This document shows, in pieces, positions 24,001 through 27,000 of a DNA stretch of 64,000 nucleotides. Made by a program: the position numbers. Position 1 is the stretch's first letter, and every line of letters begins with the position of its first letter. Source of the stretch: Escherichia coli (GTDB lineage: Bacteria > Pseudomonadota > Gammaproteobacteria > Enterobacterales > Enterobacteriaceae); assembly GCF_003790525.1 (NCBI RefSeq), contig NZ_CP033635.1. One strand, written 5' to 3'.

Positions 24001-27000
24001 TAGATGCCATGCCGCCTTCCTGGTCGGAAGTACCGCGACCACCGATCAACTCATCAGTTTCCATGCCTTCGTACGGATCGAAGTCCCAGTTTTTGATGTT
24101 GCCAATGCCGACGGTATCGATATGAGCGTCCATTGCCACCAGACGCGGGCCGTGGCCGATATAACCGAGAACGTTGCCCATCGGGTCGATTTCAACTTTA
24201 TCGAAGCCGACTTTTTCCATCTCTTCTTTAATACGATGTACTACGCGTTTTTCGTCGCAGCTTTCACTGGGAATAGCAACCATGTCGCGCAGGAAGCGAG
24301 TCATGTCCGCCTGGTAATCTTTTGCTTTTTCAAGAATCAGTTTGAATGGAATATTCTTAGCCATTATTTTTCTCCAGATTTTTTACTCCCCGTTTTGCAG
24401 GGAGCAGTTCCAATAGGGTGATTAAGGTGCTACAGCGTGTTTGCCTTCCCAGACAACTTCGCGGTAGTGCTTCACGTCTGTGTCGCCTTCAGTGCTGATA
24501 ACCAGCACTACGGCATCTTTGTTCAGCGCCAGTTTTTCCATCAGGCTTTGACGTTGCGGGTGATAATGAACCGCTGCGAGAACGCCCAAACCGACAGCGC
24601 CGGATTCACCGGAGATGATGCGCGGGTCGTTGCCGTACGGATTACCCAGCACGCGCATACCTAATGCGGCAACGCTGTCCTGGCAGGAGATGAATTGGGT
24701 GGCGCAGTTACGTAGGATTTCCCAGCCCAGCGGGTTAGGTTCGCCACAGGCCAGGCCCGCCATGATGGTGGCCATATCACCGCCAACGTTGACGATGTCG
24801 CCTTTGACGCCGGAGCGATAAATACAGTCAGCTTTGTCAGGTTCAACAATAATGCTGTGCAGATTTTGCGGGCTGTAGACGTCGACCAGATAACCCAGCA
24901 CACCACCGGCCATTGCACCGACACCAGCTTGCAGCAGAACGTGTGTCGGGGTTACGCCCATTTCACGCATTTGCTCGACGGCTTCATCTGCCAGTGTTGC
25001 GTAGCCTTGCATGATCCAGGTTGGGATTTTGGTGTAACCTTCCCATGCTGTATCCTGTACCACTTCCCAGCCGTGCTGCTGCGCGTGTTGCATGGTCAGG
25101 CGAACGGTATCGTCATAGTTCATATCCGTGACGATGCACTCGGCACCGAGGTTCAGAATGGCGTCAACGCGTTCCTGAGCAGAACCTTTCGGCATGTAAA
25201 TCACCGCATTCTGTCCGAGTTGCTGTGCTGCCCATGCCACACCGCGCCCGTGGTTGCCGTCGGTGGTGGTCGCGAAGGTCATTTTTTCGCCGATGGCATT
25301 TTTCAGATGCTCAAATGACAGCGTTTCGATATCAAGATGATATTTTTCACACAATAATTGAGCGATGGCGTACGCACCGCCGAGCATTTTGAAGGCGTTC
25401 AGACCGAATCGTTTTGATTCGTCTTTGACGAGAATTTTCTTCACACCAAAAAGGTTTGCGAGATCGTCCAGCGCACAAAGCGGTGTTGGGCGATAACCAG
25501 CAATTTTCTGGTGGAACTGGCGCGCCAGTTTGGCCTGGCTTTGCGAAAAGAGCGGTGATGTTTCGCCGTTGAAAAATTTGTTATCGGCGATATCAATCTT
25601 CAATGAGAAAACGGACATATCCTATCCTTTTGGCCTCTGGAAATAGAGGGCCGACCAGCTGATCGGCCCGAGGGGTTATTTCACGCGTTCTTGCGCTTCT
25701 TTCAGCAGTTGCTCGAGCAGTGCACCTGGTTTGGCGTATTTACGGGACAGGATCATCGCGGCGATGATATAAGGCTTCCAGCTGGCTTCTTTGTAGGTAG
25801 CGATACGGTATTTTTCGAATACGCCTTCAGTCACTTCACCTTCTTTACAGGATACACCGCTGATATCAGCTGGCAGGCAGTGCATGTACAGGGCTTCGCC
25901 ATCACGGGTCAGTTCCATCATCTCTTCAGTACAATGCCAGTCTTTGTGTTGCGCGTTCTGTGCCAGACACTGTTTTTCCAGTGCTTTTAAGCCTTCGTGA
26001 TCGTTCGCACGCAGCAATTCAGTACGCTCTTCCATCACTTTGTAAGGTGCCCATGACTTCGGATAAACGATGTCTGCGTCTTTGAAGGCTTCTTCCATGC
26101 TGGTGACCTGACGGAAGCTACCGCCGGAGGCTTTAGCATTGTTTTTAGCGACTTCAACGACATCCGGGATCAGGTCGTAGCCTTCCGGATGGGCCAGGGT
26201 GACATCCATACCGAAGCGAGTCATCAGACCGATGATGCCTTGTGGTACAGAGAGCGGTTTGCCATAGCTTGGGGAGTAGGCCCAGGTCATGGCGATTTTT
26301 TTACCTTTCAGGTTTTCCAGTGAACCAAAGTGTTCACGTAACCATGCCAGGTCAGCCATTGACTGAGTCGGGTGGTCAATATCGCATTGCAGGTTCACTA
26401 AAGCCGGACGTTGCGGCAGCACACCCTGCTTGTAACCGTCATCAAGTGCAGCGCCAACTTCACGCATATAGGCGTTGCCTGCGCCCAGATACATATCGTC
26501 GCGAATACCAATAGCGTCGGCGCAGAAGGAGATCATATTGGCGGTTTCACGCACGGTTTCGCCGTGAGCGATTTGTGATTTGCCTTCGTCGAGATCTTGC
26601 TGTGCAAGGCCGAGCAGGTTAAGCGCGGAAGCATAAGAGAAGCGGGTACGGGTGGAGTTGTCGCGGAATACGGAAATACCTAATCCACTATTAAAGACTT
26701 TGGTTGAGATGTTTTCAGCACGCAGTGCTTTTAATGCTGCGGCAACGTCCAGTACTTGTTTCAGTTCATCTGGCGTCTGTTCCCACGTTAACAAAAAATC
26801 TTTCTCGTGAAGGTGAGAGGTCAGCGAATTGATATCCTTAATCAGCTCATTAACAGTTTTCATCATAAAGTCCCGGTAGTGGAATGACAGGCAAAGTGGT
26901 TTATTTCACTGTGACTTGCCAAAGTGATTGGTGTTTTCACAGCTATACCTAGGACTAACAATAAGTGTGCCAGAATTATCCACGCGGCTGCGAAAGGCTA

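What the first reader, a model, noticed from the sequence alone, without database searches (positions are those of the whole stretch)
26957..26973. Weaker sigma-54-like element in the divergent ygeW/ygeV intergenic region
CTGGCACACTTATTGTT has a perfect -24 box but a non-canonical -12 (TTGT). The 475-bp AT-rich intergenic region between the activator gene and the ygeW-ygeX-ygeY-hyuA-yqeA operon is where a YgeV-dependent promoter would be expected, so this element or an undetected one is worth mapping.
Basis: inference. Interest (0 to 1): 0.35.

Follow-up and report, generated by a model that had tools for sequence, protein, structure and literature searches.

The report
Known sigma-54 promoter of ygeW
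The flagged 17-base element is real and is almost certainly the sigma-54 promoter of the E. coli ygeW purine/urate-degradation genes, but it was already mapped by sigma-54 ChIP-seq in 2015, so the finding is correct and not new.

Summary
CTGGCACACTTATTGTT lies at window 26973..26957 on the minus strand. It points at ygeW, in the 475-bp, 37% GC spacer between ygeW and the sigma-54 activator gene ygeV of E. coli.

The same 17-mer is site OS30 in the sigma-54 ChIP-seq table of Bonocora et al. 2015 (ygeW, fold-above-threshold 3, predicted start 80 bp before ygeW). A sigma-54 holoenzyme gSELEX peak also lies in this spacer (Shimada 2021). A 2023 paper already refers to sigma-54 promoters upstream of xdhABC and ygeWXY. 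The finding is therefore already known.

What I add:
- It is the only sigma-54-like site in the spacer (score 15.5; next best 1.0).
- It is the most conserved block of the spacer in 11 enterobacterial genera.
- All 20 proteobacterial ygeW loci examined carry it, and none has the consensus C at -12 (T, A or G instead).
- A TATCA-N3-TGATA palindrome about 234 bp upstream is conserved. It recurs upstream of the ygfK, ygfT and xdhA sigma-54 sites, so it is a candidate YgeV enhancer.
- A CRP-like site sits at a fixed -77.5.

The transcript start, rpoN dependence and YgeV dependence of ygeW remain untested.

The parts
26957..26973 (-). Sigma-54 -24/-12 promoter element CTGGCACACTTATTGTT (GG at 26971/26970; G-13 at 26959, T-12 at 26958)
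   Evidence: Sequence. Score 15.5, third best in the window and the only candidate in the spacer. Identical to ChIP-seq site OS30 of Bonocora 2015. Invariant block in 11 genera and in 5 E. coli strains whose flanks carry SNPs.
26946..26946 (-). Predicted transcription start of ygeW, giving a leader of about 80 nt
   Evidence: Inferred from the rule of Bonocora 2015 (19 bp downstream of the motif centre). It reproduces their 'distance 80' to ygeW. Not mapped experimentally.
27016..27031 (-). CRP-like site TGTGATCAACCCCACA, centred about -77.5 from the predicted start
   Evidence: One mismatch to TGTGA-N6-TCACA. A site with at most 2 mismatches lies at -76.5 to -78.5 in 15 of 20 loci and at -67.5 in 3 more; background is 0.00054 per position. 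PMC12507026 mentions a native Crp-binding site in this spacer.
27174..27186 (.). Core of the candidate YgeV enhancer: TCTCATATTGATA (TATCAATATGAGA read towards ygeW), centred about -234
   Evidence: A palindrome T(A/C)TCA-N3-TGA(T/G)A occurs upstream of the sigma-54 element in all 18 loci with enough upstream sequence, 16 of them at no more than 1 mismatch. The exact 12-mer CTCATATTGATA also occurs in the ygfT/uacT spacer and upstream of xdhA. Binding by YgeV is inferred, not shown.
27152..27284 (.). Array of further conserved TGATA/TATCA half-sites around the core (TTTATCAA 27152-27159; GATATCACA 27193-27201; TGATAAAAA-N7-TTTTTATCA 27225-27249; ATGATGATATTA 27269-27280)
   Evidence: Conserved blocks of alignment A1 and the repeat scan. 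A role in YgeV oligomer assembly or ygeV autoregulation is inference.
25676..26866 (-). ygeW coding sequence, the gene downstream of the promoter (tandem ATG ATG; PGAP starts at 26863)
27342..29120 (+). ygeV, divergent sigma-54 enhancer-binding protein (PAS, AAA+ sigma-54 interaction domain with GAFTGA, C-terminal Fis-type HTH)
   Evidence: Divergent from ygeW in 14 of the other loci.
17501..17521 (.). Best enhancer-like palindrome in the window (TTATCATTATGATAA), 202 bp upstream of the predicted ygfK sigma-54 start (element 17320-17336, -)
2131..2151 (.). Enhancer-like site in the ygfT/uacT spacer, 199 bp upstream of the predicted ygfT sigma-54 start (element 2313-2329, +)
32988..33029 (.). 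Two enhancer-like sites 21 bp apart, 131 and 152 bp upstream of the predicted xdhA sigma-54 start (element 32878-32894, -)

Best explanation
This is the sigma-54 (RpoN) promoter of ygeW, the first gene of the ygeW-ygeX-ygeY(-hyuA-yqeA) block of the anaerobic urate/purine degradation cluster of E. coli. Shown: RNA polymerase with sigma-54 binds the -24 TGGCAC / -12 TTGT element. Inferred: the closed complex cannot open on its own. Transcription would start near window 26946 only when the divergently encoded AAA+ activator YgeV contacts the polymerase by DNA looping and uses ATP to open the promoter. YgeV is proposed to assemble on the array of TATCA-N3-TGATA sites about 200-290 bp upstream. A CRP site at a fixed position (about -77.5) between enhancer and promoter probably supplies the bend or adds catabolite control. 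The T at -12 is an evolutionarily maintained feature of this promoter, not decay. It probably contributes to the low occupancy seen in vivo.
For: Published binding:
- Sigma-54 ChIP-seq site OS30 has exactly this 17-mer, oriented to ygeW, 80 bp from the gene.
- A sigma-54 holoenzyme gSELEX peak lies in the ygeV/ygeW spacer at 53-55% relative intensity.
- Lamoureux 2023 state that sigma-54 promoters were identified upstream of xdhABC and ygeWXY, and place ygeWXY in a 'YgeV iModulon' with xdhABC, ygfK and ygfT.

- It is the only sigma-54-like site in the spacer.
- All 19 other gamma/beta-proteobacterial ygeW loci have a sense-strand sigma-54 motif 69-141 bp (one at 232 bp) upstream of ygeW, scoring 13-17 in 18 of them and 9.2 in Endozoicomonas.
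- It is the best conserved block of the spacer in 11 genera, and invariant in 5 E. coli strains whose flanks vary.
- YgeV has the sigma-54 interaction domain with GAFTGA and an HTH, and is divergent from ygeW in 14 loci.
- The enhancer-like palindrome is conserved 175-255 bp upstream. A matrix trained only on other species puts its top three hits in the 64-kb window upstream of the ygfK, ygeW and ygfT sigma-54 sites.
- The CRP-like site keeps a fixed distance to the -24 box, and a Crp site is reported in this spacer.
- No convincing sigma-70 promoter faces ygeW.
Against: - No transcript 5' end, and no rpoN- or ygeV-dependent expression data for ygeW, were found in the papers I could read.
- In vivo occupancy is low (FAT 3).
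- Bonocora et al. stress that a binding site is not necessarily a promoter.
- A 2026 massively parallel reporter study reports no consistent footprints for YgeV-iModulon promoters.
- The -12 C, present in 125 of 135 bound sites, is missing.
- The cross-species loci are related by descent, so the counts are not independent events.
- YgeV binding to the palindrome is purely inferred.
Confidence: 0.8

Rival explanations
1. Sigma-54 holoenzyme binds here but never transcribes productively. It would be one of the many 'binding sites, not promoters' found by ChIP-seq, and ygeW would be transcribed from elsewhere.
For: Bonocora et al. make this caveat for all their sites. Occupancy is low (FAT 3). 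The -12 is off consensus. No transcript data were found.
Against: The site is intergenic, in sense orientation, and at a typical distance from the start codon. It is the best conserved block of the spacer across orders. It is paired with a conserved enhancer-like palindrome and an adjacent activator gene. No alternative promoter was seen.
Confidence: 0.08
2. ygeW is driven mainly by a CRP-dependent sigma-70 promoter, and the sigma-54 complex is incidental or acts as a roadblock. A GATAAT hexamer lies at 26975-26980 just upstream of the element, and the CRP-like site is nearby.
For: A CRP-like site is conserved and a Crp site is reported in the spacer. GATAAT is visible in the sequence.
Against: GATAAT is not conserved in other genera and has no usable -35; the consensus scan does not report it. 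My arithmetic puts the CRP centre near -55 from such a start, which is not a standard class I position. The CRP site keeps a fixed distance to the sigma-54 -24 box, or one helical turn less, across genera.
Confidence: 0.08
3. Chance match to a short degenerate consensus.
For: The pattern is expected 0.46 times per window by chance.
Against: Published in vivo and in vitro sigma-54 binding. Conservation in 20 of 20 loci. Correct strand and position.
Confidence: 0.01

Closest known systems
Sigma-54 binding site OS30 (ygeW) of Bonocora et al. 2015, PLoS Genet (PMC4591121)
   Same: It is the same object: the same 17-mer, strand, gene and predicted start.
   Different: Nothing differs. That paper reports binding only, with no EcoCyc status, no transcript and no activator.
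E. coli pspA and pspG promoters (PspF-dependent sigma-54 promoters)
   Same: Strong -24 (TGGCAC/TGGCAT) with TTGT at -12. They account for two of the four T-at-minus-12 sites among the 135 bound sites.
   Different: Their ChIP occupancy is much higher (FAT 21 and 15, against 3). The activator and physiology differ. The use of IHF at psp promoters is from my own knowledge, not tested here; no IHF-like site was found here.
xdhA, ygfK and ygfT sigma-54 sites in the same cluster (Bonocora OS29, OS31, OS32); the 'YgeV iModulon' (Lamoureux 2023)
   Same: Same gene cluster and co-expression module. All have enhancer-like TATCA-N3-TGATA sites 130-235 bp upstream.
   Different: Those three keep C at -12 (TTGCC, TTGCT, TTGCA) but have weaker -24 halves. 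Only ygeW has a perfect -24 with a non-C -12.
prpBCDE promoter with divergent prpR (sigma-54 promoter under CRP control). Recalled from my own knowledge (Lee, Newman and Keasling 2005), not checked here.
   Same: A divergent activator gene, a sigma-54 catabolic operon, and a CRP input in the shared spacer.
   Different: Different activator family member, inducer and site layout. This is a resemblance only.
DioR sigma-54 regulon of Clostridiales (PMC6615313)
   Same: A sigma-54 activator controls dpaL, ygeW-ygfK-ssnA-ygeY and xdhC-type genes, so sigma-54 control of this pathway is widespread.
   Different: Different phylum and activator. With my E. coli-trained matrix no comparable site lies directly upstream of ygeW in most non-proteobacterial loci.

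Membership tests
Sigma-54 (RpoN)-dependent promoter | GG at -24 within TGGCAC | tested here: met
   CTGGCAC at 26973-26967.
Sigma-54 (RpoN)-dependent promoter | GC at -13/-12 within TTGCW, exactly one helical turn from the GG | tested here: inconclusive
   The spacing is exact and G-13 is present, but -12 is T. C is found at -12 in 125 of 135 bound E. coli sites; T is found in 4, including the confirmed pspA and pspG promoters. The variant is therefore tolerated by the family.
Sigma-54 (RpoN)-dependent promoter | Bound by sigma-54 holoenzyme | not testable with these tools
   Met according to the literature: ChIP-seq OS30, FAT 3, and a gSELEX peak at 53-55%.
Sigma-54 (RpoN)-dependent promoter | Transcription starts about 12 bp downstream and requires rpoN | not testable with these tools
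   No data found. The predicted start is 26946.
Sigma-54 (RpoN)-dependent promoter | Requires a bacterial enhancer-binding protein acting from upstream sites | tested here: inconclusive
   A bona fide activator gene (GAFTGA, HTH) is adjacent and divergent. A conserved palindrome lies about 234 bp upstream. Binding and dependence were not tested.
YgeV regulon (candidate enhancer TATCA-N3-TGATA) | Shared upstream motif at the sigma-54 promoters co-expressed in the YgeV iModulon | tested here: met
   The exact 12-mer CTCATATTGATA occurs at 3 of the 4 promoters and a perfect palindrome at the fourth. The cross-species matrix ranks the ygfK, ygeW and ygfT upstream sites 1-3 in 64 kb.
YgeV regulon (candidate enhancer TATCA-N3-TGATA) | YgeV protein binds the motif | not testable with these tools
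   No published YgeV footprint was found. The reporter study was inconclusive.
CRP-binding site | TGTGA-N6-TCACA dyad | tested here: met
   TGTGATCAACCCCACA has 1 mismatch and its position is conserved. A Crp site in this spacer is cited in PMC12507026, without coordinates.

The most novel reading that the evidence does not exclude
The ygeW promoter may represent a deliberately maintained architecture with four parts: a perfect -24; a -12 position that can be T, A or G but never C across at least five orders of Proteobacteria; a CRP site locked at -77.5 in place of an IHF site; and a distant enhancer (about -234) made of TATCA-N3-TGATA sites. That palindrome would be the so far undescribed YgeV operator. 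It would define the regulon for anaerobic urate/purine degradation (ygeW, xdhA, ygfK, ygfT/uacT). The non-C -12 would tune closed-complex stability or activator dependence.
Probability: 0.45. Interest if true: 0.4.

Novelty: already known. Interest (0 to 1): 0.2.

Why it matters
The ygeW-ygeX-ygeY-hyuA cluster has recently been tied to anaerobic uric acid and purine degradation by gut bacteria, with relevance to gout. A 2025 paper states that regulation of these genes is poorly understood. The promoter itself is not news. A concrete, testable layout (start at 26946, CRP site at -77.5, candidate YgeV operator at -234, shared with xdhA, ygfK and ygfT) would let someone design footprinting and reporter experiments, or rational de-repression of the pathway in probiotic strains.

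Tried and rejected
- A second, undetected sigma-54 element in the spacer: rejected. The next best score is 1.0, against 15.5.
- A sigma-70 promoter for ygeW: the consensus scan finds only a meaningless hit over the start codon. The GATAAT next to the element is not conserved.
- A riboswitch or structured leader: no credible Rfam match. The leader folds no better than shuffles (z = -0.7).
- An IHF site between enhancer and promoter: none with at most 1 mismatch.
- Papers that would bear on YgeV or rpoN dependence could not be read: Iwadate and Kato 2019, Xi et al. 2000, Reitzer and Schneider 2001.
- The O157 microarray papers gave nothing decisive.
- The 2,8-dioxopurine preprint says nothing on promoters.
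- The IsrR paper renames YgeV but identifies no direct targets or binding site.
- In non-proteobacterial ygeW loci my E. coli-trained matrix finds no consistent site directly upstream of ygeW. I did not pursue these.

Full report
**Observation**

The window is E. coli. A 1-kb stretch around the finding is 100% identical to several E. coli chromosomes, and 5181 of 5426 complete genomes hold a match. The annotation there is ygeW (knotted carbamoyltransferase) and ygeV (sigma-54 interaction domain protein).

- In the window, ygeW is 25676..26866 on the minus strand and ygeV is 27342..29120 on the plus strand.
- The + strand reads AACAATAAGTGTGCCAG at 26957-26973.
- The spacer is 475 bp and 37% GC.
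- The register is that of a sigma-54 promoter: GG at -25/-24 and G at -13, with T instead of C at -12.

**Chance**

As a bare pattern the element is unremarkable at window scale: 1 match against 0.46 expected.

I built a scoring matrix from 49 other published sigma-54-bound sites. The element scores 15.5, against a training median of 15.8. That is the third best of all positions on both strands of the 64 kb. Nothing else in the spacer scores above 1.0.

**Already known**

- Bonocora et al. 2015 (PMC4591121), Table 1, list site OS30. The peak is at 3004190, FAT 3, motif CTGGCACACTTATTGTT, + strand in K-12, gene ygeW, distance 80, PSSM 9.837, no EcoCyc entry.
- Their rule places the start 19 bp downstream of the motif centre. 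In the window that is 26946, exactly 80 bp before the first ATG of ygeW.
- Shimada et al. 2021 (PMC8743547) found a sigma-54 holoenzyme gSELEX peak in the ygeV/ygeW spacer at 53-55% relative intensity.
- Lamoureux et al. [quoted passage not shown] They group these operons with ygfK and ygfT in a 'YgeV iModulon'.

The finding is correct but not new. 'Weaker' is fair for in vivo occupancy: FAT 3, against 11 for xdhA and 26 for ygfK. It is not fair for sequence score or in vitro binding.

**Conservation**

I fetched 80 ygeW loci from one genome per species.

- All 19 gamma- and beta-proteobacterial loci have a sense-strand sigma-54 motif 69-141 bp upstream of ygeW, with one at 232 bp. The genera are Edwardsiella, Pluralibacter, Serratia, Enterobacter, Hafnia, Kosakonia, Cedecea, Erwinia, Aeromonas, Photobacterium, Endozoicomonas and a Rhodocyclaceae MAG.
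- In an alignment of 11 enterobacterial ygeV-ygeW spacers (mean column identity 51%), TGGCA...TTATTG.T is the best conserved block.
- In five E. coli strains sampled across the identity range, SNPs fall just upstream and downstream of the 17-mer but not within it.
- ygeV is the divergent neighbour in 14 of the other loci. It encodes PAS, an AAA+ sigma-54 interaction domain with GAFTGA, and a Fis-type HTH.

**The -12 position**

Among the 135 high-stringency bound sites in E. coli, 125 have C at -12. Four have T (pspA, pspG, ygeW and one antisense site) and six have A.

At ygeW, none of the 20 loci has C. The position is T in most Enterobacterales. It is A in Aeromonas, one Serratia, one Photobacterium, Erwinia and the Rhodocyclaceae MAG. 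It is G in one Photobacterium and Endozoicomonas. The base changes but never to the consensus. This suggests the off-consensus -12 is maintained rather than decayed. The functional reading (lower closed-complex stability, altered activator dependence) is my inference from general knowledge of -12 mutants and is untested.

**Upstream architecture**

Two further conserved blocks appear in the alignment.

*Candidate enhancer.* One block is a palindrome T(A/C)TCA-N3-TGA(T/G)A flanked by extra TGATA/TATCA half-sites.

- In E. coli it is TCTCATATTGATA at 27174-27186, about 234 bp upstream of the predicted start.
- It is present in all 18 loci with enough upstream sequence, and it lies at -234 to -248 in most Enterobacterales.
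- The exact 12-mer CTCATATTGATA occurs three times in the 64-kb window. All three copies lie upstream of sigma-54 sites: the ygfT/uacT spacer, the ygeW/ygeV spacer and upstream of xdhA. Allowing one mismatch there are 6 matches against 0.54 expected.
- ygfK has a perfect TTATCATTATGATAA.
- A matrix trained only on the 16 non-E. coli sites puts its three best hits in the window upstream of the ygfK, ygeW and ygfT sigma-54 elements (scores 24.0, 20.0, 17.2). xdhA has two weaker sites 21 bp apart.
- Distances to the predicted starts are -202 (ygfK), -234 (ygeW), -199 (ygfT) and -152/-131 (xdhA).

This is what an enhancer for the shared activator should look like. I found no published YgeV operator, and a 2026 reporter study states that YgeV-iModulon promoters gave no consistent footprints.

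*CRP-like dyad.* The other block is TGTGATCAACCCCACA at 27016-27031, centred at -77.5.

- A site with at most 2 mismatches is at -76.5 to -78.5 in 15 of 20 loci, and one helical turn closer in 3 more. The background rate is 0.00054 per position.
- A 2025 paper mentions a native Crp-binding site in this spacer and glucose repression of the pathway.
- No IHF-like site lies between enhancer and promoter, so CRP may provide the bend. This is inference.

**Mechanism proposed**

Shown: sigma-54 binds at the element, the element is conserved, and the activator gene is adjacent.

Inferred:
- Sigma-54 holoenzyme forms a closed complex at 26957-26973.
- YgeV, activated by an unknown signal linked to urate or purine availability, assembles on the TATCA-N3-TGATA array at about -200 to -290.
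- DNA looping, helped by CRP at -77.5, brings YgeV to the polymerase. ATP hydrolysis opens the promoter and transcription starts near 26946.

**Rivals**

- A non-productive binding site. This is made unlikely by position, orientation, conservation and the paired enhancer.
- A CRP-dependent sigma-70 promoter. It has no conserved -10 or -35, and the CRP site tracks the -24 box rather than any sigma-70 element.
- Chance. This is refuted by the published binding and by the conservation.

**Not established**

- The transcript start, and the rpoN and YgeV dependence of ygeW.
- The five-gene operon. Hairpins with short T-runs follow ygeW (25648-25669) and ygeY (23116-23135). A strong bidirectional terminator lies only after yqeA (20703-20728).

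**Verdict**

Interest in the finding as posed is low. The conserved non-C -12, the fixed CRP site and the candidate YgeV operator are modest additions that are testable and apparently undescribed.

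Noticed in passing
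window 2131-2151, 17501-17521, 27170-27190, 32988-33029: A shared palindrome T(A/C)TCA-N3-TGA(T/G)A lies 130-235 bp upstream of all four intergenic sigma-54 sites of the cluster (ygfT/uacT, ygfK, ygeW, xdhA). The exact 12-mer CTCATATTGATA occurs at three of them. It is a candidate YgeV operator, and I found no publication describing it.
   Followed up: yes
window 26958 and the homologous position in L003-L020 and L039: The -12 base of the ygeW sigma-54 promoter is T, A or G but never the consensus C in 20 of 20 proteobacterial loci. 93% of E. coli sigma-54-bound sites have C there.
   Followed up: partly
window 27016-27031: A CRP-like dyad keeps a fixed distance to the -24 box: centre about -77.5 in 15 of 20 loci and -67.5 in 3 of 20. 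No IHF-like site lies between enhancer and promoter.
   Followed up: partly
window 18892-18912 and 18652-18668: The fourth-best enhancer-like hit (TCTCAATGTGAGA) lies inside the 3' end of yqeC. It is about 240 bp downstream of the intragenic sigma-54 site IS34 of Bonocora et al. (TGAGCACGAACCTTGCA) and upstream of yqeB. It may be a downstream enhancer or a chance match.
   Followed up: no
window 9541-9557 (-), 14847-14863 (+), 13392-13408 (-): Three high-scoring sigma-54-like motifs lie inside genes and are not in the high-stringency ChIP tables. They are ATGGCGCAAACTTTGCT in xdhD (sense, about 590 bp upstream of xanQ; the best score in the window), GCGGCACGCCCATTGCA antisense in ygfK, and CTGGCACGACTGACGCA in ssnA.
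   Followed up: no
window 25648-25669 (-), 23116-23135 (-), 20703-20728: GC-rich hairpins with short T-runs directly follow ygeW and ygeY. These may be internal attenuators, so the five-gene operon is not assured. A 10-bp-stem bidirectional terminator sits between the convergent yqeA and yqeB.
   Followed up: no
window 25326-25346; L013 5019-5039; L015 5036-5056: An enhancer-like palindrome (TATCAAGATGATA) lies inside the 5' part of ygeX and is conserved in Kosakonia and Serratia oryzae. It could reflect a coding constraint or an internal site.
   Followed up: no
window 27225-27249 and 27244-27274: The inverted repeat TGATAAAAA-N7-TTTTTATCA lies about 100 bp upstream of the ygeV start codon. 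It overlaps a weak -35/-10-like pair (TTATCA ... TAATAT) facing ygeV, which hints at YgeV autoregulation. This is pure inference.
   Followed up: no
window 26863-26868: ygeW begins with tandem ATG ATG. K-12-based tables use the first ATG (distance 80 from the predicted start). PGAP annotations start at the second.
   Followed up: partly
L018 and L019 (Cedecea sulfonylureivorans, Erwinia mallotivora): These two loci have a more divergent YgeV (52-53% identity), a TCTCA-N3-TGAGA variant of the palindrome, a different promoter spacer, and the CRP-like site one helical turn closer (-67.5). This may indicate co-variation of activator and operator.
   Followed up: no
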